Virus record (IMG/VR): IMGVR_UViG_3300029288_003518 | Location: 1 to 64,000 of that record | Reading direction: 5' to 3' (one strand) | DNA from: a virus | Taxonomy: Duplodnaviria > Caudoviricetes | DNA: 64,000 nucleotides | Part shown: positions 28,400-64,000 of the stretch, piece after piece | Layout: each line of letters starts with the position of its first letter | Numbering within the stretch: the first letter of the stretch is position 1 | Program-made: the position numbers and the translations under genes | The notes under the pieces: model-generated | Database searches by the model: none | Told to the model about the DNA's origin: nothing | What the model saw: only the letters and a program-made list of their open reading frames with translations

Positions 28400-28400
28400 T

Positions 28401-34575: not shown

Positions 34576-34602
34576 ATTTCTAATCTCCCTTTCATAAAGT
34601 TA

Positions 34603-45771: not shown

Positions 45772-46035
45772 TTACAACTTGCCTATTGCATCTTTGATCA
45801 TCCCTACCTGTGCCTTAAGCTTGTTTACCGCGATCTCTAAAGTAGTGACATTGAATGCAGTATCATCAAGAATCCTTAACCACAGGTTATCCCAATCCGT
45901 TAGTGTACTCTGGGTAACATAGTGGACAAGATCGGTAGATAGGCTAGCTTCCGCTGCCGTATTATAACTGATCATATAGTCTACGTAGTCTCCACTTGCC
46001 AAGGCCCCGGTTGGACTAATAGGAGGAAGAGGCAT
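45772..46035 (-). CDS. putative small virion protein
   Basis: Last gene of the structural run; AGGAG RBS. Confidence 0.65.
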   Translation of the reverse strand: MPLPPISPTGALASGDYVDYMISYNTAAEASLSTDLVHYVTQSTLTDWDNLWLRILDDTAFNVTTLEIAVNKLKAQVGMIKDAIGKL

Positions 46036-46036
46036 C

Positions 46037-46264
46037 TTATCTACTCCTTAATTCTATGATTAAATTATTTATTGTTAAGGTTAAACTTTCAACATCCGCA
46101 GTTAATATATTTAGTCTCCCGGCCAGAGAATTCAACTGGCTCTGCAGGGCAACTTGAATAGTATTAACATTAGACATCTGAGCTAGCTTTGCCATATCAC
46201 CCTGAATACTAGCGAGCTTATTATATATCTGTGTCAATTGTGCCTGATAGTCTAGGTTAGCCAT
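46037..46264 (-). CDS. coiled-coil putative virion protein
   Basis: Heptad pattern. Confidence 0.65.
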   Translation of the reverse strand: MANLDYQAQLTQIYNKLASIQGDMAKLAQMSNVNTIQVALQSQLNSLAGRLNILTADVESLTLTINNLIIELRSR

Positions 46265-46274
46265 TTTTCCTTTC

Positions 46275-47483
46275 CTATGTAGTAGTTGTGTAAGTAATAG
46301 ATATTGACTTGAATAACGGGCTCTTGGTATCTCCGTCGCCCTGAGTCAATTCTACCATTACCCAAAGAGTGTTAAGTCCAAATACACTTAAGTCCAGCGG
46401 AGCAGTCTTGGTGATAGAAGCATTGCTTGAATTCCAGATCGGTAAATTATTATTAAACTCAGACTCTGAAGTATAGATATTAACCTTATAAGTAATGTTG
46501 TCGTAGGCCGGATCGGTCCTTAGAGATGTTATAAGATTGATTAACCCAGTCTCATATTCAGGGAGCTTAAATCTGAACCCAATCTTCCCCGATGCCCTAT
46601 ACTCCACCTTCTCTATCCCCAACTCTTTAGCCCCATACACGAATGTTTTATAGTCATCTTCCATCTTACTGCTTCTCTGCCTCAGATATAGCTTTATCTT
46701 AGTAGGCTGTATATTATTAAAAGAGTACATTATGGATCTAGTATTGTTTTCCCCATCCGCCGGAAACGAAGGAAGCACGAGATCCTGTGACACTAAGGTA
46801 TCATATGTAATCACCTGAACATCTTCCACTCCCTCCGGATATGGTTTGATGTGTAGTTTATTTACATAAGGGTTACTCATAGATGGCAATGTCACCACAA
46901 GAAGGCACCTTGAACTGGTCTTTGTCGAGTCCCTGTTATACCTAACCTTTCTTTCCCAAACTGTTTCATCCTGGCCATCAAATGCCCTATTTGGACTAGT
47001 CTCCTCTAACTTTACACTCCCAGTCTCATCTATAGGAGTAACCTCTACCTTTAAGTCGGGAGCTACAATAGATCTACCATCGGTAATATTTATAGTATAG
47101 ACCTTGGAAAAACTATTATTAACCGGTAGGGTCACAACCCCAAACTCATCATTAACAACGCACTTATCTACTTCTACTATATTGGTAGGATATACTACCT
47201 GGTTCGGCATATAGAAATCTTCGTAGAATATCTTGTAGTTAGATGCAGATTGTTCATAGGAGGTTATTAGACCGCTCACAGCGTATACACGAGAACTAAT
47301 GGCCTCTACCTCATGCCTTATTCTAGATTCAAGATCATTAACATCAACAACAATGTTAGAAGCTTCAGAAAATATAGTATTCAAATCATAGAGTATATCC
47401 TCTAGATTCTTATTCATATCCTCTGAAGATGTGTTCCCCCTCCACTCAGGGAGTACGGGTGAAAAGATAGGTATCAATGCCAT
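46275..47483 (-). CDS. putative virion structural protein
   Basis: Shared N-terminal module; discoidin-like AFDGQDETVW motif. Confidence 0.7.
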   Translation of the reverse strand: MALIPIFSPVLPEWRGNTSSEDMNKNLEDILYDLNTIFSEASNIVVDVNDLESRIRHEVEAISSRVYAVSGLITSYEQSASNYKIFYEDFYMPNQVVYPTNIVEVDKCVVNDEFGVVTLPVNNSFSKVYTINITDGRSIVAPDLKVEVTPIDETGSVKLEETSPNRAFDGQDETVWERKVRYNRDSTKTSSRCLLVVTLPSMSNPYVNKLHIKPYPEGVEDVQVITYDTLVSQDLVLPSFPADGENNTRSIMYSFNNIQPTKIKLYLRQRSSKMEDDYKTFVYGAKELGIEKVEYRASGKIGFRFKLPEYETGLINLITSLRTDPAYDNITYKVNIYTSESEFNNNLPIWNSSNASITKTAPLDLSVFGLNTLWVMVELTQGDGDTKSPLFKSISITYTTTT

Positions 47484-47495
47484 TTTACGTTCTCC

Positions 47496-47804
47496 TTATT
47501 CTAGAATTTGCACTGGGTCTGCCTGAGCATAAATTCTATTTTCTATTTTAGATTCCATATCGTAAACTGCCATCTTGAGATCATATAAGCTATATAGACT
47601 ACCAGATGGCAATAAATATCCAGAAGCAAGGACATCTATGCTGTCCTTAATTCCCTCTATCTCATTGAATATAGTACTTAGATCGGTAGCAACCTCAGAG
47701 AATGACTCCCTGGCTTTCTTCGATTCAGTAGGCCCATAGTAACGATGGTTCACCTTAGATGTAGTAACTATTTTATTAAAGGGGCTTATGTAAGACATCT
47801 TCAC
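47496..47804 (-). CDS. putative virion structural protein
   Basis: Shared N-terminal module. Confidence 0.65.
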   Translation of the reverse strand: MKMSYISPFNKIVTTSKVNHRYYGPTESKKARESFSEVATDLSTIFNEIEGIKDSIDVLASGYLLPSGSLYSLYDLKMAVYDMESKIENRIYAQADPVQILE

Positions 47805-50800
47805 CTCTCTATTGTGTTATTGTGAGCGCCTAATTTATTAATTTGCAACTTTAGTTCATTGATTTCCCGCTGCTGTTCCTGTACTGCCCTAACTAGAACC
47901 GCAGTTAATTGCCCGTAGCTTAATCCCAATTCCCCTTCCGAACCACTGACTATTTCAGGGATTATCTTCCGCATATCCTGAGCAATGAAACCAACTTGTT
48001 TTTTATTACTTTCGTCCTGTTTGTGTACATAATAAACTGGCCTTAACTTTTCTATTTCCTTTATTCCGTACTTAAAATCATAGTCTATATCTTTCTTATA
48101 TGCTAAGTCAGATCCAGCTATCCAGTCCCCGGTCCCATCGCAATAAGCTCCTCCGTTTAAATGAATTAAATGGGATGGAGATGTGAGAGTTAACCCAACA
48201 TAACCGCTTGGATCAACGAGTATCCTAGATTTACCCTGAACCTGATCGTATATTTCAAACACACTAGTACCTGAAGCTATTCCTCTACCTATCCGAGTTT
48301 TGATGCCAGCAGTTCCAGACCCTGCTCCGGTATTTTTAAAGTCAATACTAGCTCCAGCATCCCAATCTCCCTCTAATGTAATAACTGGGAATCCATTGTG
48401 GAAACGCGCTATATAATCAGTCCCACCCTCTACGTCTAACGTAACCGAGGGGACAGCAGTCCCAACTCCAAGTCTTTGTGATGTATCTATAGTCATGGCT
48501 ATATGATCGCCATTGGTCCCAAATTGTAAAGCATTCTGGGAACGCAAGCATATGGAACTGGCGAGCTCACCTGTAAATACCGTATCCCCACCAGAACCCA
48601 AATGGCCAAAACCAAAATATCCCCTCTTGGTAATACCATCAGTTCCCCCGGTAAAGGTCATATAGGCGCCTATATCATCAGCACTTTGCCACCGATTAAT
48701 ATCAAAATGACCCAGGGTTAATCTCGCATAACCCGATTCACAGGCTATAATCTGATTAAATGGGGCCCCACCACCACTAAAACTATCGGAGTCACAGAAT
48801 ATTGAGTTATTAAGTGTCTCATCCAGATACCAAAGTGTTATGGTCGTAGGAGTGGCGTCATATAACCCATTGCCGAAGAAATAATTGTATTTAGCATACT
48901 TCAGTTTTATCCCATAGTTATAATGCCCCAGCTCAATTGCATTCCCTGTGATGAAGTTTCTACTATTATATTCTCCCGCATCACCCAGCATCTCAAGAGC
49001 ACAATCTCCCCCACAACCAAGTGCCCAGAAGTTCTTACTTATAGTTATTCCGTTGACATACTTATTCAGTAATATCTTTCTCAGGTTATTAAAGTAATTA
49101 TTTTCTATGGTTGTTACATATCCCTGGAAGGGAGCGTCATTGTCTAGATCTCCAAGGTGAGCTATATTGTTCCCTCCAAGAATAATAATATCTTGTGCCA
49201 ATGTCGCATCAACAGCTTCAGTTTTGCCTATAAAAGAACAATCATGTATCTTTAAGGTGGTATTGGTAGTAAAAACAAAAGGAAGGGTGCCATCTGTAGT
49301 ATCCTTAAGCTGCAAGTTGGATATCTCCAATAGACCTTTTCCTTTTGTAACTATCTTAGCGATACTACCCGCATATCTTAGATCTATAGCCGAAGGAGCT
49401 GTTGGAGCGGTGAAACTAGAACCATTTAACCAAGTTGAATCTCCTCCTCCACCCATCCCGACTAAACGTATTGTGGGTTGCTGAGGGTAGACTCCATTGA
49501 TGCTTAATTGCTTTCCATCATTCGCAAGAGCTATCTGGCTATCAACTCTATAGGTCCCCTTGGGGAACAGTACAGTTCCACCGCCAGAGTTATACGCGGC
49601 AGTAATAGCCGCCAATACTGCGGTTGAATCATCAGTGGTCCCATTCCCGAGTGCTCCGTAGGCCCTCACATCAAAACTGGGAGACTTGGAAACAACATCA
49701 GATACCGTAAGTACACCACTGCAGCTTATTTTTGCAACAGATGATATTGGATTTCCAGAGTAGAAATTATAAGACACGGGGACAGAAGTACTAGTTGGGT
49801 TTCCATCAACATCGATGCCTATATATCCACCTAATCTCTCTACTGAGTTGGTTTGCCCGGCCCAACTTAAATAACCTAAGGTATCTCCGTTTTGAATATC
49901 ATTGGTAGACCTAGATTTATACCACTGGATCCCTTGGGAATACTGGTCGTTGGTAGAGACTGATATATTAAGAGAAGCATTGGATAAATCAACAGATCCA
50001 GTAAAGATTGGATTCAATGTTGGAGCGGCCCCTAAATCAGCATAGGAAAGATTTGCCCCATTAACTTTATAATGAGATCCAGGGGTAATATTTACATCCC
50101 CATTAACATCAATTATTCCACTGCTGCTTATTTTCATTATCTGGGTAATTGGTGTCCCAGAGTAGAAAGTAAAAGATGTTGGAATTGAACTTGCTGTCGG
50201 AGTACCATCTATATCAATACTGAGATATCCACCTATCCGAGATATAGCGCTAGTCTGACCCGCAAAAGACAAATAGCCCAGATTGTCTCCTAATACCGTG
50301 TCTCCGGTACCACGAGACTTATACCATTGGATCCCCCTACTCCACTCATCATTACTCGTAACTGTTAAATTAAGACTTTCGTTAGTTATGGCAACAGCAC
50401 CATTTACCTCTAGTTTAACCCCGGGTACTGTGGTACCAATACCAACCCTCTGGGCTGTATCAATAGTCATAGCTATAAAGTCACCATTGGTTCCAAAATG
50501 CATCGGTCCATAAGACTTTAGGGCTATAGAATCTACTAACTCTCCTGTAAATATGGTGTCTGCTCCGCTACCGGTATGACCAAAACCAACCATCCCCCTG
50601 GGAGTATTACCTATTGATCCACCAAGGAAATTTATTTTACCACCAATATCATTGGTAGTCTGTATTTTTTTGCACCACCAATCGGTAAAAGCTGTAATAC
50701 TACCGGTTGCGGTAATACTATTAGGAACCTCTAATCCATCATCAGCATCTCTTCCCCCGAAAATATAATTACCCTCACAAGTAACAATTGTATCATTCTG

Positions 50801-53002
50801 ATGAATAATCCAATTATTTGTAGAATTAGTTATATTCCAGAATGCTCCGGTTACACCCGGAGTAACATCTCCTATCCAATTACCAATGAAGAACCCATCA
50901 TTATGATAGTTTAATTTAACTCCATTAGTATAATAGAGCATCTCAATTGTGTTACCACAACAATAAGTCCCACCATTTGTTCCCGCGGTATTTACACCAT
51001 CAGCTTCAATGGCTGCTAAACCACCACATCCGAGAGTCCACCAGCAGTGTACTATCTGTACGGCATTTGCGTAACACTTTAAATAAACACCCCTCTGGAT
51101 TCTGGAGAAATAAACATTATTTATAACAGTTATATATCCCTGAAATGGGGCATCATCATATAGATCACCTAAATGTGTAATATTAAATCCACCACATATA
51201 ATAGCATCCTGGGTAGGTTGGACTAAAGAATTTGCCTCTGTCTTTCCTATAATTGAACAATCATGTATATTTAACTGAGAATTAGTTGTTTGTATAAATG
51301 GAGTAGTACCATCTGTACTGTCTATTAACTGCAAGTTAGCTATCTCGACAAGACCCTTTCCGTGGGTCATTAATTTAGCTTCATAAGGACCACCAACATA
51401 TCTTAGATCCAAAACAGAAGGAGCTTGCGGAAGTGGGTAAACGTGACCATCCAACCAGGTAGAGTCACCACCCCCCCCAACACCAATAAACCGGAATGTT
51501 GGCTGTTGAGGATAAATACCATCTATATGGAATTGTTTCCCATCGTTTGGAAGGCGTATCTGACTATCTATTCTATATGTTCCCTTCGGGAATAAAATGG
51601 TTCCGCCACCAGTATTATAGCACGCCGTAATAGCTGCCAACACTGCAGTTGAGTCATCGGTAGCCCCATTGCCCAGAGCCCCAAAAGCCCTTACGTCAAA
51701 CCATGGGGAAGTAGTAATAATCCCCGAAGCACTGATTGTTGCACTTAAGTTTAAATTCCCCGTAAGATAATTATCAGTAATAGAACCATTGCCTAGGGTA
51801 ACGGTATTACTTCCGTGTCCAACCGCGGCATACCCAATAACTATCTCATTCGTATCCCCATCAGCTTTGGCCATAGTGCTCATGCCAAGATATACTGAAT
51901 TCTCTGAGGTTACATTGGGATTTACGAACCCAGATATATATCTACCGGAGTTCACTCCTATTGCCGTATTTCTATTTCCTATAGTAATATTCGATAAAGA
52001 ATAATAGCCAATAGCAGTATTATCGCTTCCGGTCGTATCCCAGTAGAGAGAAGCTACCCCAAGAGCAGAACAGGTATTAGCTGTTGAGCTCGTGATAAGC
52101 GCATTCATCCCTATAGCAGTATTAGAAAAACCAGTGGTATTGTCGTGTAAAGCCGCTACTCCGACAGCGGTATTGGAATACCCCTCGGTATTTAAATAAA
52201 GAGACTCTTCTCCACAGGCTGTATTATAACTTCCGCTCGTGTTTAACCAAAGCGAGCAATACCCCGCGGCCGTATTGAAAAACCCCGTAGTATTAGAATA
52301 TAAAGAATTAGTTCCTAAGGCACTATTGGCATATCCCTCAGTGTTGGATAAAAGAGAGTTTTGTCCAAAAGCAGAATTATCATATCCGATAGTATTGAAC
52401 CTAAGAGCCGACACTCCAAACGCTGAGCTTCCATATCCTGCGGTATTACTAAAGAGAGACCCTACGCCAAAAGCTGAATTATAGCTTCCGCTAACATTGC
52501 CCCAGAATGATTGATACCCTAAGGCAGAGTTATCAATCCCTGTTCCAACCGAGTTTCCGGCTCCACCAAAATAATAATTATTTAGCGCGGTTTGAGCAAA
52601 TCCGAAAGTTAGATCATTGTATTTATATAATCCACCATTAACAACATTAAGACTATTAGTGGTTGTTGTCCCATTAACCTGCAAGGCAGTACTCGGTACC
52701 ATAGTACCAATTCCTAATTTATCAGTAAGGACTGTAGGATAAATTGATCCAGTCGAAGGGAATCGCGTAAATGGTGACAGGGGATGCTCCTGAAAAGTTC
52801 CCCAACCATTGGCATCTGAGGTCAGTACATAACCAGAGGGTACTGGACCACCTATTTTAATATGATCAAAATAACCAGAGGCAAAGACACCAGAGGCATA
52901 TATGTCGGAGGATAGGTGCCACCGCTGTATGCTTTTTTCCTTGAGATCACCATTTCCCTTAAGAAAGGAAACTGAAAAATTATCTATTTTACTCGCAGGC
53001 AT
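47801..53002 (-). CDS. tail spike/fibre: YadA-head-like repeats, two duplicated pectate-lyase-3-like beta-helix domains, C-terminal S74 chaperone
   Basis: 14-aa N[ST]AxG..SL..NT.G repeats; DVRA[FY]GALGNG.TDDSTAV...FPKGTYR twice; SDLAYKKDI...GFIAQD...LVRAVQEQ. Confidence 0.88.
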   Translation of the reverse strand: MPASKIDNFSVSFLKGNGDLKEKSIQRWHLSSDIYASGVFASGYFDHIKIGGPVPSGYVLTSDANGWGTFQEHPLSPFTRFPSTGSIYPTVLTDKLGIGTMVPSTALQVNGTTTTNSLNVVNGGLYKYNDLTFGFAQTALNNYYFGGAGNSVGTGIDNSALGYQSFWGNVSGSYNSAFGVGSLFSNTAGYGSSAFGVSALRFNTIGYDNSAFGQNSLLSNTEGYANSALGTNSLYSNTTGFFNTAAGYCSLWLNTSGSYNTACGEESLYLNTEGYSNTAVGVAALHDNTTGFSNTAIGMNALITSSTANTCSALGVASLYWDTTGSDNTAIGYYSLSNITIGNRNTAIGVNSGRYISGFVNPNVTSENSVYLGMSTMAKADGDTNEIVIGYAAVGHGSNTVTLGNGSITDNYLTGNLNLSATISASGIITTSPWFDVRAFGALGNGATDDSTAVLAAITACYNTGGGTILFPKGTYRIDSQIRLPNDGKQFHIDGIYPQQPTFRFIGVGGGGDSTWLDGHVYPLPQAPSVLDLRYVGGPYEAKLMTHGKGLVEIANLQLIDSTDGTTPFIQTTNSQLNIHDCSIIGKTEANSLVQPTQDAIICGGFNITHLGDLYDDAPFQGYITVINNVYFSRIQRGVYLKCYANAVQIVHCWWTLGCGGLAAIEADGVNTAGTNGGTYCCGNTIEMLYYTNGVKLNYHNDGFFIGNWIGDVTPGVTGAFWNITNSTNNWIIHQNDTIVTCEGNYIFGGRDADDGLEVPNSITATGSITAFTDWWCKKIQTTNDIGGKINFLGGSIGNTPRGMVGFGHTGSGADTIFTGELVDSIALKSYGPMHFGTNGDFIAMTIDTAQRVGIGTTVPGVKLEVNGAVAITNESLNLTVTSNDEWSRGIQWYKSRGTGDTVLGDNLGYLSFAGQTSAISRIGGYLSIDIDGTPTASSIPTSFTFYSGTPITQIMKISSSGIIDVNGDVNITPGSHYKVNGANLSYADLGAAPTLNPIFTGSVDLSNASLNISVSTNDQYSQGIQWYKSRSTNDIQNGDTLGYLSWAGQTNSVERLGGYIGIDVDGNPTSTSVPVSYNFYSGNPISSVAKISCSGVLTVSDVVSKSPSFDVRAYGALGNGTTDDSTAVLAAITAAYNSGGGTVLFPKGTYRVDSQIALANDGKQLSINGVYPQQPTIRLVGMGGGGDSTWLNGSSFTAPTAPSAIDLRYAGSIAKIVTKGKGLLEISNLQLKDTTDGTLPFVFTTNTTLKIHDCSFIGKTEAVDATLAQDIIILGGNNIAHLGDLDNDAPFQGYVTTIENNYFNNLRKILLNKYVNGITISKNFWALGCGGDCALEMLGDAGEYNSRNFITGNAIELGHYNYGIKLKYAKYNYFFGNGLYDATPTTITLWYLDETLNNSIFCDSDSFSGGGAPFNQIIACESGYARLTLGHFDINRWQSADDIGAYMTFTGGTDGITKRGYFGFGHLGSGGDTVFTGELASSICLRSQNALQFGTNGDHIAMTIDTSQRLGVGTAVPSVTLDVEGGTDYIARFHNGFPVITLEGDWDAGASIDFKNTGAGSGTAGIKTRIGRGIASGTSVFEIYDQVQGKSRILVDPSGYVGLTLTSPSHLIHLNGGAYCDGTGDWIAGSDLAYKKDIDYDFKYGIKEIEKLRPVYYVHKQDESNKKQVGFIAQDMRKIIPEIVSGSEGELGLSYGQLTAVLVRAVQEQQREINELKLQINKLGAHNNTIER

Positions 53003-53005
53003 ATT

Positions 53006-53407: not shown

Positions 53408-53408
53408 C

Positions 53409-55745: not shown

Positions 55746-55746
55746 T

Positions 55747-57996
55747 TTACAATCCTCCTAAGGGGTAGATCTGAAGAGCGTACTTGGCTAGAACTGGAGT
55801 ATAGCTCTCAGCATCAGAAATATCTGTAGGTCTAGACAGGGCAGCCTTAAACCTAATTGAATATACCGCGTCTCCTACGTCAATATAGGCCAGTGGATTC
55901 TTCCTCTCCGCACTTGGAACATCAGAATTAACATTGATTATTTCTGGTACAGAATTTGTTCCATCCTCAGATACAGTCGTTCTATGACTAGTGGGCGAGA
56001 TCCGGTTCCACGATGTCCCATTATCTATAGATATATAATATTTTATCCAATCATTCTCAGTATTTATTCTCGATGGATCTTCATAGAAGACCTTGGGAAT
56101 AGTCTCATCCACCTGAAGGGCTACCTTAGAAATTGGTTTAGGACTAAGGAATGGTTTGGATACAATTTCACTCGCTTCTGAAAATTTATAAGAATATATA
56201 TTGATATCTCTAATCCCTATAGCAAACCTAGATCTATCATTCTTAATTGCTGTCCAGCTCCTGGATATTCTGGCCGGGCTAACAGATGTCTCGGTCTTTT
56301 TAGTAGAGGAGAAGAATGACAACCCCAAAGCAACGAGAAATAGAGCTCCACCGGTAGCAATATTTAATGGGCTAACAAGTGCTGCCCCAAGAGCTGCGGT
56401 ACCAGCTGCCGCTGTCCACCCAGCTGCAGTTAAGAGGTTATTGCTGGTTTCTCCAGTAGTTACACTCCCAGGCTCGAGAGACATTGCATCAAAACCAAGA
56501 AGATGGCCTGTAAGGTATGGCATTTCTACTGTCTTCCTTACAGTGTAACTATCAGTAGAAGTTTTCTTGCTCAATCCCCAAAACTTAGTTGTAGTAGTAT
56601 TAGTAGTGACTGTTTGTTCTATCTCCACCATCAGAACTTCATAATCCTTCAGATAGGATCTGGTCTGCCTAAGATCAAATTTAATAACCCTGGTTGTCCT
56701 GGGCGCGAAACACCATACCCCCTGGCCTCCATACTTAAACTGATCGGGCGATAGGGTGTCTTTTATCTCAGATGAATTAAGTTCGCTATTGGCCTGGCTA
56801 GTTAAGGTAGTCTCATATTCGTGGTCATCGAATCCGTCTAATTCTGAGAAAACCTTTCCATCAGCAGAAGTTTGTATAGATAGAACTTCCAGATATAGAT
56901 CCTGTCCGAAATTGTTTGGATTAAGACTAATCCAGTTTATACTTTCATTTTGCGCCAGATGGACAATAAAACTACACCCAAGATATGTTGACGATGAAGT
57001 CTCTGTAACCGGAATATAATTTTCAATTAAACTCCCGCGCTGATCGGTTGTTACAGTCCCCCCTGTAGTGCTAACATTAACAGAATTAACCTCATTAGCA
57101 ACTAACTCATTGAACTCAGCCACACTAATCTGCTTACCGGTATATTTATCCTTATATCCAACTATTGGATTGGTATTTAGCTCTACCTCCCAGAATGTAT
57201 CCGCATTATTATCAAACATGGAAAGTCTTTTAGGCATATTCTCTTCTTCACTCGCACCATGTTCATATAGTCTTGTTCCATCAGAGGAATAGGTAACATG
57301 CCAAGTTCCTCCCTCCGGCCTGGGTTCATTCTTTATACCAAAATAAAGTCCCTCATAACCCCCATACTCCCCTGTCGGATCCCACTCTGGGATAGATTCC
57401 TTAATACCCGTTACTGTCGTTACTAGACTACTCCTATCTATATTGCCAGTCCTCTTGAGAGTTATGACCCCTTGGCTCGAAACCAATTCAGCGGAATCAA
57501 CTCCCGGAGTTATCTTACTAAAATCTATCTTAGAATTATCTACAAAATCATCGACTGCATAGATTGATTGAGTCTTAGACCCAGAAGAATAGAACGAATA
57601 ATCTACAGTATCTGAAGAAAGCTTGATAACTTTGTTAAGCAGCATCTGCCTATCCATCTCGCTATAGTTAAAATCTTTCACTAATACAGATGATAACGAA
57701 TCTGTCTCTGTATATGCCACGTGAATATCGTTTACAAGCTCTGTCATTGTATCATTATACCCAGATGACCTGGCTGGTGATTCTTTCTTAATCAACCTTT
57801 TCTTAAGTGTTGGTTTCCCGAGGTTGGAAAAGAAATCCTTAAAAGCCTTAAATAGGGCAGAGAATAGAGAATTCTCTGTTTGCATATCCTTGGAGGTATC
57901 AACATCCTTTCTCTTCTGCTCTATAATAGCCAGAAGATTATTGGCTTTCTCTATATTCATCTTGGTATCATTTAATCTTAAATATTCATTTGACAT
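55747..57996 (-). CDS. large putative virion protein with an internal hydrophobic Ala/Gly segment
   Basis: Shared N-terminal module; MFDNNADTFWE; AAGWTAAAGTAALGAALV...LFLVALGL. Confidence 0.7.
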   Translation of the reverse strand: MSNEYLRLNDTKMNIEKANNLLAIIEQKRKDVDTSKDMQTENSLFSALFKAFKDFFSNLGKPTLKKRLIKKESPARSSGYNDTMTELVNDIHVAYTETDSLSSVLVKDFNYSEMDRQMLLNKVIKLSSDTVDYSFYSSGSKTQSIYAVDDFVDNSKIDFSKITPGVDSAELVSSQGVITLKRTGNIDRSSLVTTVTGIKESIPEWDPTGEYGGYEGLYFGIKNEPRPEGGTWHVTYSSDGTRLYEHGASEEENMPKRLSMFDNNADTFWEVELNTNPIVGYKDKYTGKQISVAEFNELVANEVNSVNVSTTGGTVTTDQRGSLIENYIPVTETSSSTYLGCSFIVHLAQNESINWISLNPNNFGQDLYLEVLSIQTSADGKVFSELDGFDDHEYETTLTSQANSELNSSEIKDTLSPDQFKYGGQGVWCFAPRTTRVIKFDLRQTRSYLKDYEVLMVEIEQTVTTNTTTTKFWGLSKKTSTDSYTVRKTVEMPYLTGHLLGFDAMSLEPGSVTTGETSNNLLTAAGWTAAAGTAALGAALVSPLNIATGGALFLVALGLSFFSSTKKTETSVSPARISRSWTAIKNDRSRFAIGIRDINIYSYKFSEASEIVSKPFLSPKPISKVALQVDETIPKVFYEDPSRINTENDWIKYYISIDNGTSWNRISPTSHRTTVSEDGTNSVPEIINVNSDVPSAERKNPLAYIDVGDAVYSIRFKAALSRPTDISDAESYTPVLAKYALQIYPLGGL

Positions 57997-60306
57997 TTAT
58001 ATTGTCCTCAGCTTTAGAGTAAAGTCATTCAGGATGGGGGTAACAGATACATTCCCTCTATTATTATTTCTAAGAAGGGACCTAAATTGTATAAAATCAT
58101 TTAAGTATTGATATTTTGCCTTTACCTCTTTACTCGCCAGTGGAGTATTGAAGTACAAAGATTTTCCGCTATGTATATACTCATAATATGGATAGGTTAC
58201 CTCATCATATGCGGTTAATGCAGGCCTAACATTAGAATAATAATCAGTTTGATTAATTGAATCAAAACCATCCACAGTAACTTTTAAAACATCATAATAT
58301 TCTCCAGCTGCTATCCCATGAGATGTACCGGCGGTTATATTCAACCACCTACCATCTTCTTCCGCAAAATCAGGAGATGATTTTCCGGCCTTAGTAGTAT
58401 CATTAATAATAGAATAATCTATGTATGGAAAATGCTCTAATTCTACCTTGTACTGTCTGGATCCTACTCCGGAATATTGTTCAGTAGAATCAAGCAAGAC
58501 ATCACTAGAGAAATTAACAATTACCCCACTCGGGATAACATCTGTAGTCCCTATTGGCAAATATGTTACAGTATAAGCCGATGTTGCCATATACCATCCG
58601 GAAGATACTACGATAGACCCATCCGTAGGGTCAAATACATAATCTGAAGACGGGATTATATTATCATTTCTATATAGGCTATCTACATACCCGCTACAGG
58701 GAAATCTTATATGGCCAGTTTGGGTATTGGAATCCACATCCAGTCTTTCTTTATATATATATCCCCCCGATGGGAGGATATTCTTCCATTCACCAGACCT
58801 TGTAGCTACCTGATATTCTATACTCGTACCAGATGGGACAACTTCGGATACATCCAGCCGGGCCTCTAATACCGCCCCATTAGGAGTGTACATCGGGCTA
58901 ATATATTCCCCACTCTCCATATACCATATCTTCCTGATATCTATATTATATGCCCCATATGCATACTCATATTTTCTAACCTCCACTAGTTCATCCGTTG
59001 CGTCTGACTTCTTTCCATATAGATCAAGTTTTAGTGGATCAACAACATTGGATGACCCAGTCTTGGTCATCTCAGCTGTTGCAGCATCGAAATAAGTCTC
59101 AGATAGGGATTGTGTTTGGTCGTAGTTATCCATTTTACCGATAGCTTTTACCCTATCTTCATAACTCTGGGTAGCATCAACATAAGCTTTCCATCCAGTA
59201 ATATAGTCAATCATATCTTGGGTGGCCTGTATCGGGGCAGTAGTTTCCGTAGTAATAGAGTATTCTCTATCAACAATTTGCTGCCATAGCTGCGCATTAT
59301 TAATTATTCTCTTTGGTATCTTATAGGTATTAATACTGGGATTTCTTTGGTTAATTACTATCTTTATTTGTTTAATTATAACTTCACTAAAATTAAACTC
59401 CATAATAGAGGTAGATTCTGTGGGGGCAACATTTAAATCTATCCAGGGCCCACCTACGGTCTGGCTATAGAATATCTTCATAATACTCAGAGGATAATTG
59501 GTGAACGGGTTATACCTTATGTTGTTTATTAAGTCGGGCCTAAAGAGTGTTATTACTATTTCACATATTGCACCAAACTGACTTTCTCCTGCATACGTCT
59601 GTCTTATCGGTTCATCAGTAAGGATAACCTCTCCCCAGAATGTTTCAGAATCACCATCTATAGCTAATTCTTTCCTATGGGATTCATCCTCTATTGTTCC
59701 CTTTATCCCACCACCGTAATGATATATATCTATATCCGCCATCGCCAGACCGCTTATACTAAGAGCAGAATGATCTAACCCTATTGGAAGCTTAACAGCA
59801 TTAGTCTCAGAATCTATCTGGGCAGCAAATATCCTGTCAGTAGATAGGTTATCCGATTTATAGAATGAGTTAAACTTTACGTCGGTTATCCCACTCTTGT
59901 TCTCTTTTATAACCTTATGAACTACTATATCGTTTTCTATCTTAGATAAGGCAACCTTAATATCCCTAAGTACAGAATCATTCAATAACCTATGAACCTT
60001 GAGGGTTTTATTAATATTATTATTCTGTTTAAAAAGCGCCCCCAGATCAACATAGGCCTCATCCATGGTATTATTATAGTCCTTAGAAACTATTTTACCA
60101 TATTTAGTAGCCTTCCTTAACTGGATCAGCGGATTACCAAGCGGTTTCTCTAACTGGGCAATCAAAGTCTGAAGCTGAGTCTTTAGATCTGCATCATCGG
60201 GAGTTTGATCAGTAGAATCATACCGGCTCTTAAGGACAGCCAGCAGCCTATCCTGTTGGGTCTTAGGTATTAGATTATAATAAGATTCAAGATAACTTTG
60301 CCTCAT
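57997..60306 (-). CDS. large putative virion structural protein
   Basis: Shared N-terminal module; AIDGDSETFW. Confidence 0.7.
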   Translation of the reverse strand: MRQSYLESYYNLIPKTQQDRLLAVLKSRYDSTDQTPDDADLKTQLQTLIAQLEKPLGNPLIQLRKATKYGKIVSKDYNNTMDEAYVDLGALFKQNNNINKTLKVHRLLNDSVLRDIKVALSKIENDIVVHKVIKENKSGITDVKFNSFYKSDNLSTDRIFAAQIDSETNAVKLPIGLDHSALSISGLAMADIDIYHYGGGIKGTIEDESHRKELAIDGDSETFWGEVILTDEPIRQTYAGESQFGAICEIVITLFRPDLINNIRYNPFTNYPLSIMKIFYSQTVGGPWIDLNVAPTESTSIMEFNFSEVIIKQIKIVINQRNPSINTYKIPKRIINNAQLWQQIVDREYSITTETTAPIQATQDMIDYITGWKAYVDATQSYEDRVKAIGKMDNYDQTQSLSETYFDAATAEMTKTGSSNVVDPLKLDLYGKKSDATDELVEVRKYEYAYGAYNIDIRKIWYMESGEYISPMYTPNGAVLEARLDVSEVVPSGTSIEYQVATRSGEWKNILPSGGYIYKERLDVDSNTQTGHIRFPCSGYVDSLYRNDNIIPSSDYVFDPTDGSIVVSSGWYMATSAYTVTYLPIGTTDVIPSGVIVNFSSDVLLDSTEQYSGVGSRQYKVELEHFPYIDYSIINDTTKAGKSSPDFAEEDGRWLNITAGTSHGIAAGEYYDVLKVTVDGFDSINQTDYYSNVRPALTAYDEVTYPYYEYIHSGKSLYFNTPLASKEVKAKYQYLNDFIQFRSLLRNNNRGNVSVTPILNDFTLKLRTI

Positions 60307-60323
60307 CTATGATCCTCGCATTT

Positions 60324-62384
60324 TTAAACATACTCTATGATTGGGAAAGATCCTAAAGCCATATGTTTCGTAACTTTTTGTTTAACCTCGTCCTCACCAA
60401 ATGATCCACCATTTGACTTAAGTACTCTCTTGGGAACCCTAACCACAAGCACTCCGTTAGAGGGGACAGCTTGACCATCGAAATATCCTATATCCCAGAA
60501 GAACTCCGATTCTGGTTGTATTAGCTTAACTTTTTCTATTTCCTGAATTCCTATTTTACTCAATCCCCCTCCCCTAGTCCTAACATCCGTAACATCCAGA
60601 TCGCTGACCTTACAATGGGGGCCCAGAGATACTGACCCTAACCTAAAATCAAATACTCCAGAAGGAACACCCGTGAAGTTATGGTACAACACTTCATTAC
60701 TTATAACGGTAGGTTCTCCATATCCGCCCGGACCATCATCGATAATCGAATAAGGCCTTATGAATATATGTGCTATACTACCCGAAGCATAAAGATCATA
60801 ATTGTGAGAAGGGGTAGGATTTAGATCTAAATCGAAATAAGGATATGGAGGAGTTGTTGGATATATCCCCCCACTTCCAACAAACCCGGTATAATCACAG
60901 AACTCTTCCTCATACATATACGTAGATATTATGTCGTCCTTATGAGTTAATAATTGGGCTAATTTTACGGTGCCATTATATATGTCCCAATCAAGAACTC
61001 CTGTCGGGGGAACCATAACATCGTTTACAAACACCGCAAGGTATCCGGTAGGAGCAAACCCCGGGTCAATAGTATTATTCAACACGGAACTTGGGTCTAT
61101 AAATAGTGGAGTTCTCTGTAACTGTATAGTCTGTTGGTCTAGGAGCTCTACTCTTTCATTAGCTGATTGTTTATATGGAGGACCCCAAGTTAAATCCCAC
61201 ATCTGGTACGCATATTCAGGTATGGCATACTCAAAAAGTATACTGCCTGAGTATCCAGAAGGGACAACTTCTCCCACGGAATTCATTCTCCTTCTGAATC
61301 TACCATTTCTAACCCTGACATACCAATCATCAGTAGATATTACATGTTCTGGCTTCTTAAGATATATAGCGCTATAAGAATTCGGCATTAAATAATAGAA
61401 TGATCTCTTTGCCGTGAAGTATGCTTCATCACCTGTTTTGAAATAACCGTCCCCATTAACCTCTAAAACCATACCATATATTCCGGTTATTGTTATTCCT
61501 CTCGTAAAATTGTGTGGAGACACGCTCCATGAATCGGTCGTGGCACTTTGAAGATATGTATCTGTATTAGCACCATACCTGTCTGAGCTTCTTTTTACAG
61601 TGAATGTACTTGGGCCAGTTGCCTTAAGTGTGTATTTTACTATTACTCCTGGAGCATATTCAGCAACATTATTTGTTACATCGGTCCTTATTATAACCGG
61701 TCCGTTTTCAAGAGACGTACCTATGCTGTTAACTAATGGAGTAAGTGTTGGAACGGGGGGAACTATTGCGGAATACATCCCATTGCTATCTGGACCCCAT
61801 AATGAATATTCGTAACAACTAGTAAAAGGGTTACCTAGTTTCAATAGTGGTTCAGCATTAAGGTTCTCAGTCCATCCAGGGTTAACCTGTGTACCGTCAA
61901 CCAGACACCTATTATATTTAACTTTATATTGAGTATATGTATTATTGTAGAAATCCGTTAATACATCAACTCTATAAACATTGGCCGCTATTCTTTCTAT
62001 GGTTACTGTATAATTAACATCCTTCAGGATATTCCCATTCTGGTCGGTGATATATACCTGCTTACCAGGATTCTCTCCATAAGTAAAATGGTAGAATCTA
62101 CAGCGATGCCTATAGAATAATGGAGTTTCGGTAATATCATTTGTACTAGTAGTAGTGACATTGGTTATAAGGAAATCGGTTACGGTTAGGGCTGGCATAT
62201 GTCCGCCATTATCCACATATGAATGTATAATGCTCCTATCTGAACTGGCAACATTTTCTTCCCATTTATGGGAAAAATCCATCAATGATATATTCTTCTC
62301 CGGGTCAATATCGGGGATATCAACAACCGCAAGACCAAAACCAGATGGATCTACATATTTTCCTACTCTAAAGGTTAATGACAT
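60324..62384 (-). CDS. large putative virion (baseplate-like) protein
   Basis: Beta-rich; C-terminal DVRTRGGG...WDIG..DG motif; structural context. Confidence 0.65.
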   Translation of the reverse strand: MSLTFRVGKYVDPSGFGLAVVDIPDIDPEKNISLMDFSHKWEENVASSDRSIIHSYVDNGGHMPALTVTDFLITNVTTTSTNDITETPLFYRHRCRFYHFTYGENPGKQVYITDQNGNILKDVNYTVTIERIAANVYRVDVLTDFYNNTYTQYKVKYNRCLVDGTQVNPGWTENLNAEPLLKLGNPFTSCYEYSLWGPDSNGMYSAIVPPVPTLTPLVNSIGTSLENGPVIIRTDVTNNVAEYAPGVIVKYTLKATGPSTFTVKRSSDRYGANTDTYLQSATTDSWSVSPHNFTRGITITGIYGMVLEVNGDGYFKTGDEAYFTAKRSFYYLMPNSYSAIYLKKPEHVISTDDWYVRVRNGRFRRRMNSVGEVVPSGYSGSILFEYAIPEYAYQMWDLTWGPPYKQSANERVELLDQQTIQLQRTPLFIDPSSVLNNTIDPGFAPTGYLAVFVNDVMVPPTGVLDWDIYNGTVKLAQLLTHKDDIISTYMYEEEFCDYTGFVGSGGIYPTTPPYPYFDLDLNPTPSHNYDLYASGSIAHIFIRPYSIIDDGPGGYGEPTVISNEVLYHNFTGVPSGVFDFRLGSVSLGPHCKVSDLDVTDVRTRGGGLSKIGIQEIEKVKLIQPESEFFWDIGYFDGQAVPSNGVLVVRVPKRVLKSNGGSFGEDEVKQKVTKHMALGSFPIIEYV

Positions 62385-62397
62385 CTGTTATCTCCAT

Positions 62398-62715
62398 TTA
62401 CGGGGCATAATATGCATAACCACTATTATTTAATTTCAGGCTGCTTCCGTGAGCCACATTATTGTCTACCTTAGTCATATCTAAACTACTGTTCGTAATC
62501 TTGATGGCGGGTATACTATAATCTACTATTTTGTCTCCAGTTATAGTATTAGCAATTATCTGGGAGACAGAAATATAACCATCCAATAAACTAAATGGAA
62601 TTTGTACTCCGTATGTCCCATTGTGGGTATGAGCATTAATGGCATCTTTAAAAGCATTCATTTTAGCTGACGCCAATCTCTCATAAACCGCGAAGGGTAC
62701 TGTATAAATCGACAT
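62398..62715 (-). CDS. putative small virion protein
   Basis: HTHNG motif and ITGDKI repeats typical of fibre or baseplate proteins. Confidence 0.65.
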   Translation of the reverse strand: MSIYTVPFAVYERLASAKMNAFKDAINAHTHNGTYGVQIPFSLLDGYISVSQIIANTITGDKIVDYSIPAIKITNSSLDMTKVDNNVAHGSSLKLNNSGYAYYAP

Positions 62716-62726
62716 ATTAATTCCTC

Positions 62727-63632
62727 CTAAGTTAAGTAATCTAGTGTATCCAAAAGAGAGAGATCTAAGGTAAATGGGTCTGCGCTCATATAGAACTGTG
62801 CAGCCCTTACCGTATCATTTATACCAGAAGCATCAAGATAATAGGCTTTTATTTGAGAAATACCAGCTTTCCTATCATTCGTAATATAACGAATGTGTGC
62901 TTCGCCTCTCGTACTGGTTGTTTCCACTATCTCGATTGCCTGTCCGCTAGCGTCCAGAGTTAATATTGTACCATCATGCGGACTTATATATCCCAGTTCT
63001 GACCAATATCCAATTGCTCCTAACGCTGACTCCAAACTCTCTATTTGGAATACCACACTTTTGTCGGGAACCCTATCAAAATCAGAATCATAAAGGGTAG
63101 CTGTCACCTGATATCCTTGATATCCATCTGCTCTAACTGAATTCTGAGACGCCGAGAGATACATTGATGCGGGTTCGGTAGTCTGGGAGAAACGTACAAA
63201 CCCACCAGCAACCTCTGCTCTTATGGGGTTATAATCTATACTATCCATGGTATAGTACCCACTAGGCCCAGACTCGTACTCTATAAAAACATTCTCCGGG
63301 AGTACTCCGTTGAATACTAATTTCCCACTAGAATCAGGATGTAAAGCAAATTCTCGAGCAGTACGATCATACTGACCATTATCAAGTAAATGAAAGAAAC
63401 CAAAACCAACTTTATTATATTTACCTAATCCACTGGTCTGACCCCATGGCTGGGTTGGTGTAGTGGTTTCATATCCAGATGCTGTAACAATAACCGGAGC
63501 ATTCTGCTTAACAGCATTAAGTAGAGTATAAAAAGACACTCCGCTGGGAGCCATTTCCCACGCCTTCTGGGAGTATAGATAATATTCATTATATTTAAAA
63601 CCTGAAGGATCTACAAGATTAAGGGTTGTCAT
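62727..63632 (-). CDS. putative virion protein with Ig-like (Big_1-type) segment, rich in SG motifs
   Basis: ADG...VTATLYD...VPDKSVVF...TSTRGEA pattern. Confidence 0.65.
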   Translation of the reverse strand: MTTLNLVDPSGFKYNEYYLYSQKAWEMAPSGVSFYTLLNAVKQNAPVIVTASGYETTTPTQPWGQTSGLGKYNKVGFGFFHLLDNGQYDRTAREFALHPDSSGKLVFNGVLPENVFIEYESGPSGYYTMDSIDYNPIRAEVAGGFVRFSQTTEPASMYLSASQNSVRADGYQGYQVTATLYDSDFDRVPDKSVVFQIESLESALGAIGYWSELGYISPHDGTILTLDASGQAIEIVETTSTRGEAHIRYITNDRKAGISQIKAYYLDASGINDTVRAAQFYMSADPFTLDLSLLDTLDYLT

Positions 63633-64000
63633 TTATGCTCCTATAACTCCAGATGGATATGCTGAGTAGAAATAACCGGTATGTATTGGAAGATACCAAG
63701 AAAATCCAGATATCGTTGGATTCCACACTTCTACCGGATCACCCACCCAAAGATCGTCACTATCACCTATGCCTCCGCATTGCCATTTATCGTATATTCC
63801 ACTTGCCTTAGGATCCCATATATGAGGGAGAAAATCATACCCATTGGTCTTTTCGTCTACCCCATCCCAATAACTCTCATCACAAATTATGTTTCCAAAG
63901 AATATGGGATTATGATCATACACTTCATTAGCGTAATCCACAAGTTTGGTCCCTATGGCATGTCCTTCAGAATTAAGTAAATTACTTGGGTAACTTGGGT
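63633..64000 (-). CDS. putative virion protein, 5'-truncated by the window edge
   Basis: Frame stays open upstream of GTG 63941 to the edge (PSYPSNLLNSEGHAIGTKL). Confidence 0.65.
   Translation of the reverse strand, partial: PSYPSNLLNSEGHAIGTKLVDYANEVYDHNPIFFGNIICDESYWDGVDEKTNGYDFLPHIWDPKASGIYDKWQCGGIGDSDDLWVGDPVEVWNPTISGFSWYLPIHTGYFYSAYPSGVIGA

What the first reader, a model, noticed from the sequence alone, without database searches (positions are those of the whole stretch)
45772..64000. A [P/A/S]-Ser-Gly-[Y/I/V/F] motif recurs through unrelated virion proteins, a putative glycosylation sequon
Manual counts: 62727-63632 has 9 SG and no GS in 301 aa (PSGF, PSGV, ASGY, TSGL, SSGK, ESGP, PSGY, ASGQ, ASGI). 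57997-60306 has 11 SG, mostly clustered (PSGT, PSGG, CSGY, SSGW, PSGV). 60324-62384 has PSGF, PSGYSGS, ASGS and PSGV. The spike begins YASGVFASGY...PSGY. 47496-47804 has ASGYLLPSGS, and the last ORF has ASGI, ISGF and PSGV. By contrast, I find only 2 SG in the 818-aa primase-helicase. The SG-over-GS asymmetry argues against a composition effect. Inference: sequons evolved independently in surface loops so that much of the virion, not just the fibre, is glycosylated. Some structural ORFs (53409, 55747) are not enriched.
Basis: partly seen in the sequence, partly recalled or inferred. Interest (0 to 1): 0.85.

Follow-up and report, generated by a model that had tools for sequence, protein, structure and literature searches.

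The report
Ala/Pro-Ser-Gly tag on phage tail proteins
The outer tail (baseplate and fibre) proteins of this uncultured 114-kb phage and its relatives carry the tripeptide Ala/Pro-Ser-Gly about seven times more often than chance, at conserved loop positions and only in lineages that also encode glycosyltransferases, so it is most plausibly a sugar-attachment tag, although no chemistry shows this.

Summary
All the counts check. Per-protein shuffles of 45772-64000 give 19 copies of [PAS]SG[YIVF] against 1.9 expected. The non-structural genes of the window have none.

The whole SG excess comes from one tripeptide, [A/P]-S-G. PSG and ASG are the two most over-represented tripeptides in the structural proteins. 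The excess lies mainly in the distal baseplate/fibre module (41 observed, 5.9 expected), not across the whole virion. Only Ser is enriched between [A/P] and Gly, and codon use shows selection on the protein, not the DNA. Sites are conserved: 76% against 23% for average tripeptides.

Two folds carry the tag, in loops or at loop-to-strand junctions. Four distant phages show the same tag, mostly in proteins with no BLAST match here. Every evaluable tag-positive genome (seven) has GT4 glycosyltransferases. The four glycosyltransferase-free relatives lack a Ser-specific excess. Two GT4-bearing relatives also lack it, and no single gene tracks the tag.

An O-glycosylation sequon is the best reading (about 0.45) but is chemically unproven. 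A purely structural turn motif is the main rival.

Other agents of this scan reported similar lineage-specific tags (SGS, DGY, DS[DE]) in other phage genomes.

The parts
62727..63632 (-). 301-aa protein made of two Ig-like domains. It is the densest tag carrier in the window, with 6 [A/P]SG and 9 SG against 0 GS. Tag codons: 63600-63608, 63540-63548, 63474-63482, 63258-63266, 62943-62951, 62823-62831.
   Evidence: Searches give the counts and coordinates. In a 41-member family alignment, five SG sites keep Ser and Gly in at least 88% of members, with A/P/S swapping before Ser. The AlphaFold model has pLDDT 84.6, and most tags lie in inter-strand loops. Foldseek matches Ig-like sandwich domains.
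60324..62384 (-). 686-aa distal tail protein with 4 [A/P]SG (PSGF13, PSGY375, ASGS533, PSGV574).
   Evidence: All 4 sites are conserved in the G001 ortholog. It matches phrog_28704.
57997..60306 (-). 769-aa virion structural protein with 11 SG and 3 [A/P]SG (PSGT491, PSGG512, PSGV592).
   Evidence: It matches phrog_20243 (virion structural protein). All 3 sites are conserved in G001. Distant homologs occur in 0305phi8-36 (gp171) and the Moorella phage.
47801..53002 (-). 1733-aa tail spike/fibre with 6 [A/P]SG. Three lie in the first 57 residues (ASGV36, ASGY41, PSGY55).
47496..47804 (-). 102-aa protein with ASGY60 and PSGS66.
   Evidence: One of the two sites is conserved in G001.
46275..47483 (-). 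402-aa virion structural protein (phrog_19670) with 1 [A/P]SG.
63633..64000 (-). C-terminal end of a 433-aa virion protein (63633-64934 in the genome) with 2 [A/P]SG (ASGI, PSGV).
   Evidence: Both sites are conserved in G001.
53409..57996 (-). Two large virion proteins (778 and 749 aa) that carry no tag, and neither do their orthologs in two relatives. They serve as an internal negative control.
   Evidence: 0 [A/P]SG in this phage, in G001 and in the ENA relative.
23854..40104 (-). Sugar island and candidate source of the modifying enzymes: 8 proteins with GT2 domains (one fused to a methyltransferase and a GT17-like domain), 2 GT4 proteins, 2 further methyltransferases, an epimerase/dehydratase, 2 DegT aminotransferases and a hexapeptide acyltransferase.
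   Evidence: Pfam. The island's start is syntenic in the ENA relative and in G002.
16264..23346 (-). 2360-aa fibre of [Y/I/V]-S-G triplet repeats (516 SG), directly downstream of the sugar island. It shares the S-G-hydrophobic core with the tag, but not the A/P before Ser.
   Evidence: [AP]SG is under-represented here, 2 observed against 6.8 expected.

Best explanation
[A/P]-Ser-Gly, usually followed by a hydrophobic residue, is a short linear tag on the distal baseplate and fibre proteins of this phage lineage. It sits mostly in loops or where a loop enters a beta-strand.

The most likely function is an acceptor site (sequon). Phage-encoded, cytoplasmic glycosyltransferases from the sugar island at 23.9-40.1 kb would attach a sugar to the Ser hydroxyl before or during tail assembly. 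The outward-facing tail apparatus would then carry a phage-made glycan coat. The neighbouring poly-[Y/I/V]SG fibre would be a second, repeat-type acceptor.

Shown here: the statistical reality of the tag, its Ser specificity, its conservation, its restriction to one module, its recurrence in distant phages, and its co-occurrence with glycosyltransferase genes.

Inferred only: that the Ser is modified, that the modification is a sugar, and which enzyme does it.
For: 1. Enrichment. [AP]SG is 41 observed against 5.9 expected in the distal tail module (P about 5e-21). It is 1 against 5.6 in non-structural proteins. PSG and ASG are the top two tripeptides. The shuffle z is 10-13.
2. Ser specificity. 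[AP]DG is 11 against 9.8 and [AP]NG is 10 against 9.4. In 0305phi8-36 the generic turn words [AP]NG, [AP]EG and [AP]DG are enriched instead, and [AP]SG is 0 against 4.2.
3. Protein-level selection. Ser codons at the tag are 66% TCN, the same as overall.
4. Purifying selection. 35 of 46 sites are shared with G001, against 23% for average tripeptides. Ser and Gly are 79-100% conserved at most sites in two families of about 40 members.
5. Diverse carriers. The tag occurs on different folds, an Ig-like sandwich and a propeller-like domain, with no extended flanking similarity.
6. Recurrence. G012, G017, G020 and G034 (major capsid protein about 32% identical) show the same Ser-specific excess: 15 against 1.6, 29 against 4.3, 25 against 3.5 and 16 against 2.9. 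It lies beside the baseplate wedge gene where that gene was found (G012, G017, G020), mostly in proteins with no BLAST match to this phage.
7. Gene co-occurrence. All seven evaluable tag-positive genomes have GT4 genes. G003, G009, 0305phi8-36 and MTATph1 have no GT2 or GT4 and no Ser-specific excess.
8. Precedent. The soluble glycosyltransferase SgtA of Clostridioides difficile adds O-GlcNAc to Thr in Gly-Pro-Thr repeats of BclA3, and to Ser when Thr is replaced. That is a Pro-Thr/Ser-Gly context (PMC7157674).
Against: - There is no chemical evidence of any modification.
- [A/P]-S-G matches the classical type I turn preference: Pro at i+1, Ser/Asp/Asn at i+2, Gly at i+3 (from memory of Hutchinson and Thornton 1994). 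The modelled sites are mostly loops and turns.
- High positional conservation is what a structural residue would also show.
- G008 and G022 carry the GT4 pair but show only about a 2-fold, non-Ser-specific excess.
- No gene detectable by BLAST is shared by all tag-positive genomes and absent from all tag-negative ones.
- The fibre next to the island has Y/I/V before Ser-Gly, and few [AP]SG.
- Tag-positive distant phages have no poly-SG fibre.
- The scaffold-like protein, which should not be in the mature virion, has two conserved VDASG sites.
- The depletion in non-structural proteins is marginal (P 0.025) and is not repeated in G001.
- The island could instead modify DNA or host surface glycans (papers listed).
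- The positive genomes form only two lineages, so the association rests on about two independent contrasts.
Confidence: 0.45

Rival explanations
1. The tag is a purely structural motif with no modification. [A/P]-S-G would be a lineage-specific way of building type I turns or strand N-caps in the beta-rich distal tail proteins, kept by ordinary folding constraints.
For: Most motifs lie in loops or at loop-to-strand junctions in both models. Flanks are hydrophobic and strand-like. Sites are positionally conserved. The sequence fits known turn statistics. Background [AP]SG in 62 unrelated phage loci is already 1.34 times expectation. Several tag-negative relatives show about a 2-fold excess.
Against: Turn statistics favour Asp, Asn and Gly at least as much as Ser, yet only Ser is enriched here. 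Homologous modules of 0305phi8-36, MTATph1, G003 and G009 do not use it. The same word recurs on different folds and on proteins with no detectable homology in distant phages. It is nearly absent from non-structural proteins of the same genome. Avoidance of deamidation-prone Asn-Gly is not seen: NG O/E is 0.93 and DG is 1.00.
Confidence: 0.3
2. The tag is recognised by some other trans-acting factor. This could be a different Ser modification (phosphorylation, acylation, or radical-SAM chemistry from the radical SAM genes inside the tail operon), or a non-covalent partner such as an assembly chaperone or a decoration protein.
For: Radical SAM genes sit inside or next to the structural module in this phage (64935-68187), in G001 and in the ENA relative, which has five copies. 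G012, G017 and G020 also have radical SAM genes. Ser specificity and lineage specificity call for a trans-acting reader, but they do not say which one.
Against: The SPASM enzyme is closest to PapB/SCIFF-type thioether maturases, which act on Cys, and it has a Cys-rich 176-aa neighbour as its likely substrate. Radical SAM genes also occur in tag-negative G008 and G003. No kinase or acyltransferase co-varies with the tag.
Confidence: 0.17
3. The excess is a chance or compositional artefact, or a DNA-level motif.
For: The motif was chosen after looking at the data. Only 2 of the 12 ORFs in the window are individually significant for SG.
Against: Shuffle z is 10-13. The two tripeptides rank 1 and 2 of all tripeptides, in this phage and independently in G001. 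The excess is replicated in six further genomes. Both Ser codon families are used in the genome-wide proportion. The reversed motif is not enriched.
Confidence: 0.01

Closest known systems
SgtA/BclA3 of Clostridioides difficile, and the BclA collagen-like glycoproteins of Bacillus spores
   Same: A soluble glycosyltransferase, encoded next to its substrate gene, adds O-GlcNAc to the hydroxy residue of Gly-Pro-Thr triplets. The local context is therefore Pro-Thr-Gly. Ser is accepted in place of Thr (PMC7157674). The acceptor sits on an outward-facing fibrous surface protein. The island here also encodes DegT, dehydratase, acyltransferase and methyltransferase enzymes. By memory, these resemble the enzymes that make the anthrose-type capping sugars of BclA.
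   Different: Here the word is mostly isolated, in loops of globular beta-domains, not in long collagen-like repeats. Ala is as common as Pro before Ser. Thr is rare at the site. The carriers are phage tail proteins.
Virion glycosylation of mycobacteriophages by phage-encoded glycosyltransferases (Freeman et al. 2023, Cell Host Microbe; cited in PMC12582341; the paper itself could not be read)
   Same: Phage-encoded glycosyltransferases modify the phage's own structural proteins in the cytoplasm.
   Different: By memory, the targets there are capsid and tail-tube subunits, via C-terminal regions. Here the candidates are distal baseplate and fibre proteins, carrying a defined tripeptide at dozens of internal loop sites. 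The phage lineage is unrelated, and there is no chemical evidence.
GtfA/GtfB O-GlcNAcylation of serine-rich repeat adhesins in Gram-positive bacteria
   Same: A pair of GT-B fold proteins initiates Ser O-glycosylation of a surface fibre in the cytoplasm. Here a GT4 pair (38740-40104 and 37583-38740) is conserved directly downstream of the primase-helicase gene in many related phages.
   Different: Sequence similarity to Gtf1 is marginal (PDB 4pqg, E 0.003), and MshA- and PimB-type GT4 enzymes score better. The GT4 pair is also present in the tag-negative genomes G008 and G022.
Eukaryotic proteoglycan xylosyltransferase sequon (Ser-Gly)
   Same: Ser followed by Gly is the core acceptor for O-glycosylation (from memory).
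   Different: That sequon needs flanking acidic residues and a GT14-type enzyme in the Golgi. Here Asp directly before Ser-Gly is depleted (1 observed, 7.3 expected). No related enzyme was sought or seen.
Type I beta-turn with G1 bulge (structural motif)
   Same: Pro or Ala at i+1, Ser at i+2 and Gly at i+3, placed between beta-strands.
   Different: Generic turns use Asp, Asn, Thr or Gly as readily as Ser, and they occur in all proteins and all lineages. The excess here is specific to Ser, to one module and to certain lineages.

Membership tests
Phage virion O-glycosylation system | The phage encodes glycosyltransferases. | tested here: met
   8 proteins with GT2 domains, 2 GT4 proteins and sugar-nucleotide enzymes at 23854-40104. 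The island's start is syntenic in relatives.
Phage virion O-glycosylation system | Structural proteins carry a covalently bound glycan, shown by mass spectrometry or glycan staining. | not testable with these tools
   This needs purified virions or co-expression. No such data exist for this uncultured phage.
Phage virion O-glycosylation system | Presence of the acceptor motif co-varies with presence of the glycosyltransferases across relatives. | tested here: inconclusive
   7 of 7 evaluable tag-positive genomes have GT4. The 4 genomes with neither GT2 nor GT4 lack a Ser-specific excess. But G008 and G022 have GT4 without a clear tag, no single ortholog tracks the tag, and there are only about two independent lineages.
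SgtA/BclA-type repeat O-glycosylation | The acceptor is the hydroxy residue in a Pro-[Thr/Ser]-Gly context. | tested here: met
   29 PSG and 33 ASG in the structural proteins. Ser is conserved at 79-100% at most sites. The precedent is in PMC7157674.
SgtA/BclA-type repeat O-glycosylation | The acceptor lies in long collagen-like Gly-X-Y repeats. | tested here: not met
   The tags are isolated, in loops of Ig-like and propeller-like domains. Only the separate fibre at 16264-23346 is repeat-like, and its register is broken by SG inserts.
SgtA/BclA-type repeat O-glycosylation | An SgtA-like GT-A enzyme is encoded next to the substrate gene. | not tested
   GT2 (GT-A) genes are present, but no SgtA sequence was available for comparison. 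The island is about 5.7 kb from the nearest tagged gene.
Generic type I beta-turn motif | The motif is located in turns between strands. | tested here: met
   Secondary structure of two AlphaFold models (pLDDT about 84): most motifs lie in inter-strand loops or directly precede a strand, and one lies at a strand start.
Generic type I beta-turn motif | The central residue is interchangeable with Asp, Asn, Thr or Gly, and the motif is not specific to a lineage or module. | tested here: not met
   Only Ser is enriched. Ser is rarely replaced in the family alignments. The excess is absent from homologous modules of 0305phi8-36, MTATph1, G003 and G009.
Radical SAM (RiPP-like) modification of the tag | The enzyme class acts on Ser/Gly motifs and co-varies with the tag. 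| tested here: not met
   The closest families are PapB/SCIFF thioether maturases, which need Cys. Radical SAM genes are also present in tag-negative G008 and G003.

The most novel reading that the evidence does not exclude
A broad group of large uncultured phages uses a three-residue sequon, [Ala/Pro]-Ser-Gly, to direct phage-encoded cytoplasmic O-glycosylation onto dozens of conserved loop sites of the distal baseplate and fibre proteins. This would give the adsorption apparatus a self-made glycan coat. It would be one instance of a general and so far undescribed principle, in which different phage lineages use different short tags. Other agents of this scan reported SGS, DGY, LS[AGS] and DS[DE] tags in other genomes (unverified).
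Probability: 0.4. Interest if true: 0.8.

Novelty: new variant of a known kind. Interest (0 to 1): 0.66.

Why it matters
Phage virion glycosylation is known experimentally only from a few mycobacteriophages. As far as I know, no defined acceptor sequon has been described for any phage.

A three-residue tag that marks the outward-facing tail proteins would make the question directly testable. The test is to express one 301-aa or 327-aa protein with candidate glycosyltransferases and look for a mass shift at six known serines.

If the tag is a sequon, several things follow:
- Glycosylated virions could be predicted from sequence alone.
- It could explain why large phages carry sugar islands.
- It would bear on adsorption, protease and immune resistance, and phage engineering.

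If the tag turns out to be purely structural, it is still an unusually sharp, lineage-specific rule of protein sequence that needs an explanation.

Tried and rejected
- **DNA-level motif or Asn-to-Ser mutational relic.** Rejected: Ser codons at the tag are 66% TCN, as in the genome overall, and all Gly, Ala and Pro codons are used.
- **Avoidance of deamidation-prone Asn-Gly or Asp-Gly.** Rejected: NG O/E is 0.93 and DG is 1.00.
- **Inherited repeat domain.** Rejected: there is no information beyond positions -2 to +2 around the tag, and the carriers have different folds.
- **Radical SAM enzymes as the tag's reader.** Made unlikely.
- **Avoidance of the tag in non-virion proteins as a sequon signature.** Only marginal (P 0.025) and not repeated in G001, so it is not used as evidence.
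- **A single co-varying gene.** None was found by BLAST at 1e-5. DegT is absent from tag-positive G012 and from the partial G002 record.
- **Poly-SG fibre as an obligatory partner.** Not so: there is none in G012, G017, G020 or G034.
- **Close relatives in the GenBank phage collection.** None by DNA. By protein, only 22-25% identity.
- **G001 as a glycosyltransferase-free relative.** Not usable: the contig ends at the primase-helicase gene, just before the island's position.
- **Walking along metagenome contigs.** IMG/VR records were used instead.
- **Freeman et al. 2023.** The paper could not be read.


Full report
**What the window is.** The 64-kb window is the left part of a single 113,821-bp phage contig.

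- Genes at 45.7-107.7 kb on the minus strand form the structural module. PHROG matches identify the large terminase, portal, prohead protease, scaffold-like protein, major capsid protein, sheath, tube, a gp25-like protein and a baseplate wedge. A run of 'virion structural' and spike/fibre proteins fills 45.7-70.6 kb.
- Downstream of the primase-helicase gene (41196-43652) lies a 16-kb sugar island at 23854-40104. It has 8 proteins with GT2 domains (one fused to a methyltransferase and a GT17-like domain), 2 GT4 proteins, 2 further methyltransferases, an epimerase/dehydratase, 2 DegT aminotransferases and a hexapeptide acyltransferase.
- Next comes a 2360-aa fibre made of [Y/I/V]-S-G triplets, with 516 SG.
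- The nearest cultured relatives are very distant: Bacillus phage 0305phi8-36 and Moorella phage MTATph1, at 22-25% protein identity.

**Checking the observation.** Only two ORFs are individually significant for SG: 62727-63632 and 57997-60306. Pooled per-protein shuffles of the 12 ORFs in 45772-64000 give:

| Word | Observed | Expected | z |
|---|---|---|---|
| SG | 60 | 42.5 | 3.0 |
| GS | 35 | 42.5 | -1.3 |
| [AP]SG | 25 | 4.2 | 10.5 |
| Reversed motif (control) | 1 | 1.9 | -0.6 |

Non-structural ORFs of the window have 1 [AP]SG (3.7 expected) and no [PAS]SG[YIVF] (1.4 expected).

Across the whole structural module, SG is the most over-represented of 387 dipeptides (172 observed, 119 expected). 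The excess comes entirely from one context. A precedes SG 33 times (about 8-11 expected, depending on the estimate) and P 29 times (about 5-7 expected). SG after any other residue is at expectation (110 observed, 106 expected). PSG (z 10.8) and ASG (z 8.8) are the top two of all tripeptides, and SGV is third.

**Anatomy of the tag.**

- *Ser-specific.* [AP]DG is 11 against 9.8, [AP]NG 10 against 9.4 and [AP]TG 14 against 12.4.
- *Selected at the protein level.* Ser codons at the tag are 66% TCN, exactly as overall, and all Gly, Ala and Pro codons are used.
- *Weak flanks.* Val is common two residues before A/P (16 observed, 3.8 expected), and hydrophobic residues follow Gly. There is no longer similarity, so the sites are not copies of one domain.
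- *Module-specific*:

| Gene set | Observed | Expected |
|---|---|---|
| Distal baseplate/fibre module (45.7-72.2 kb) | 41 | 5.9 (P about 5e-21) |
| Tail core | 8 | 4.3 |
| Head genes | 6 | 1.9 |
| Non-structural genes | 1 | 5.6 |

- *Untagged controls.* The two big proteins at 53409 and 55747 have none, and neither do their orthologs in two relatives.
- *Structural setting.* AlphaFold models of two carriers have pLDDT 84.6 and 84.4. One is a pair of Ig-like sandwiches. The other is a helical N-terminal part plus a propeller-like beta domain. In both, most tags lie in loops or directly precede a beta-strand.

**Conservation.** The syntenic relative G001 (IMG/VR, 75 kb, about 55% identity) keeps 35 of this phage's 46 comparable [AP]SG sites. 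Average tripeptides are kept 23% of the time. Most changes are at the residue before Ser, from A to S, G or C.

In a 41-member family of the 301-aa protein, five SG sites keep Ser and Gly in at least 88% of members, while A, P and S interchange before them. In a 38-member family of the 327-aa protein, [AP]SG occurs 223 times against 6.9 expected. The tag is therefore under strong purifying selection site by site. It is not a drifting 'shield'.

**Is this just what phage tail proteins look like?** No.

- T4 structural proteins: 8 [AP]SG against 6.8 expected.
- The homologous 0305phi8-36 module: 0 against 4.2. It uses PNG, [AP]EG and [AP]DG instead.
- MTATph1: 13 against 6.0, but 7 are in one protein, and [AP]DG (18 against 5.3) is stronger.
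- All ORFs of 62 IMG/VR loci around primase-helicase homologs: 170 against 127, or 1.34-fold.

**Relatives and the glycosyltransferase test.**

*Close relatives.* These show the same excess in the distal module:

| Record | [AP]SG observed | Expected |
|---|---|---|
| G001 | 44 | 5.5 |
| ENA contig (82 kb) | 38 | 4.2 |
| G002 (locus around the primase-helicase) | 9 | 2.0 |

The ENA contig and G002 have the start of the sugar island in the same place. G001 ends just before that position, so it is uninformative.

*Distant relatives.* A profile scan with the primase-helicase gave 80 IMG/VR loci. Nine records were then read whole and a tenth (G034) for its first 120 kb.

- Four distant phages have the same Ser-specific excess. 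ASG, PSG, SGV, SGI and SGY are among the top tripeptides in G017, G020 and G034; in G012 the top ones are SGI and SGV. The excess lies mostly in proteins with no BLAST match to this phage.

| Genome | [AP]SG observed | Expected |
|---|---|---|
| G012 | 15 | 1.6 |
| G017 | 29 | 4.3 |
| G020 | 25 | 3.5 |
| G034 | 16 | 2.9 |

  In G012, G017 and G020 the major capsid protein is about 32% identical to this phage's, and the excess lies next to the baseplate wedge gene. Neither gene was found in the 120 kb of G034 that was read.
- All four have GT4 homologs.
- Closer relatives (capsid 46-50% identical) lack a clear excess. G003 and G009 are complete genomes with no GT2 and no GT4: 8 against 5.2 and 11 against 5.3. 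G008 and G022 do carry the GT4 pair: 13 against 6.1 and 12 against 5.4, and the excess is not Ser-specific.
- In summary, a tag-positive genome always has GT4 (7 of 7 evaluable). The four genomes with neither GT2 nor GT4 lack a Ser-specific excess. GT4 alone is not sufficient.
- The positive genomes form two lineages, so this amounts to about two independent contrasts.
- No BLAST-detectable gene is shared by all positives and absent from all negatives. DegT is not required.

**Rivals.**

- *Radical SAM genes.* They sit inside the tail operons of this clade. The SPASM enzyme is PapB/SCIFF-like, a Cys-thioether maturase, and it has a Cys-rich neighbour as its likely substrate. Radical SAM genes also occur in tag-negative genomes. 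They are unlikely readers of the tag.
- *Structural motif.* This is the serious rival. [A/P]-S-G fits type I turn preferences, most modelled sites are loops or turns, and conservation is positional. Against it stand the Ser specificity, the lineage and module specificity, and the recurrence on unrelated folds and proteins.
- *Chance, composition, DNA motifs and deamidation avoidance.* All are excluded.

**Comparison with what is known.** The best biochemical precedent is SgtA of Clostridioides difficile. It is a soluble GT-A enzyme encoded next to bclA3. It adds O-GlcNAc to Thr of Gly-Pro-Thr triplets, and to Ser when Thr is replaced, which is a Pro-Thr/Ser-Gly context (PMC7157674).

Phage-encoded glycosylation of virions is known from mycobacteriophages (Freeman et al. 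2023, cited in PMC12582341; the paper itself could not be read).

The GT4 pair recalls GtfA/GtfB, but the sequence evidence is generic GT4 only. Neither a defined tripeptide sequon nor a tag on distal tail proteins is, to my knowledge, described for any phage.

Other agents of this scan have reported comparable lineage-specific tags in other phage genomes, again without chemistry: SGS, [ST]GS, DGY, LS[AGS] and DS[DE]. These are leads, not support.

**Verdict.** A structural turn motif (about 0.3) and another trans-acting reader (about 0.17) remain open.

Noticed in passing
window:37583-40104 (-); loci L042, L048, L062, L069-L071, L076, L087: A pair of GT4 glycosyltransferase genes sits directly downstream of the primase-helicase gene, both here and in many distantly related large phages (26-37% helicase identity). 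This is a conserved gene arrangement of unknown function.
   Followed up: partly
genome 64935-68187 (just beyond the window); L008:271-8563; L004:10548-13643: Radical SAM genes are embedded in the tail operon across the clade. The ENA relative has five copies, one interrupted by an intein with a LAGLIDADG domain. Here the set is a B12-type radical SAM (64935-66272), a Cys-rich 176-aa protein (66284-66814) and a PapB/SCIFF-like SPASM maturase (66829-68187).
   Followed up: partly
window:16264-23346 (-): A 2360-aa fibre built of [Y/I/V]-S-G triplets with frequent two-residue SG inserts. It alternates with globular domains and ends in what looks, by eye, like an S74-type chaperone region. [AP]SG is under-represented in it (2 observed, 6.8 expected).
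   Followed up: partly
G027 (IMGVR_UViG_3300008516_000204, loci L122-L127): A complete 106-kb phage whose top tripeptides are TGP, PTG and GPT, which suggests a collagen-like Gly-Pro-Thr repeat protein. It also has two large GT2-containing ORFs. This is a BclA/SgtA-like pairing in a phage.
   Followed up: no
G022 (IMGVR_UViG_3300030616_000016, loci L110-L121): Genome-wide excess of the Cys-Gly words FCG, YCG, CGS and NCG (z 5-8), unexplained.
   Followed up: no
window:53006-53407 (-): An endonuclease VII-like gene lies inside the structural module, between the spike gene and a large virion protein gene.
   Followed up: no
genome 96894-97676 (L013:14174-14956): The scaffold-like protein (weak PHROG match, E 1e-6) carries two conserved VDASG sites. 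This is odd if the tag marks only proteins of the mature virion surface.
   Followed up: partly
L004:152-3883 (G001); proteins P0078, P0085, P0087: The primase-helicase of several relatives is about 1240 aa long because of an intein with a LAGLIDADG domain. The copy in this window (818 aa) has no intein.
   Followed up: no
window:4824-5252 (+): A small 142-aa early-region protein has 4 SG against 0.5 expected.
   Followed up: no
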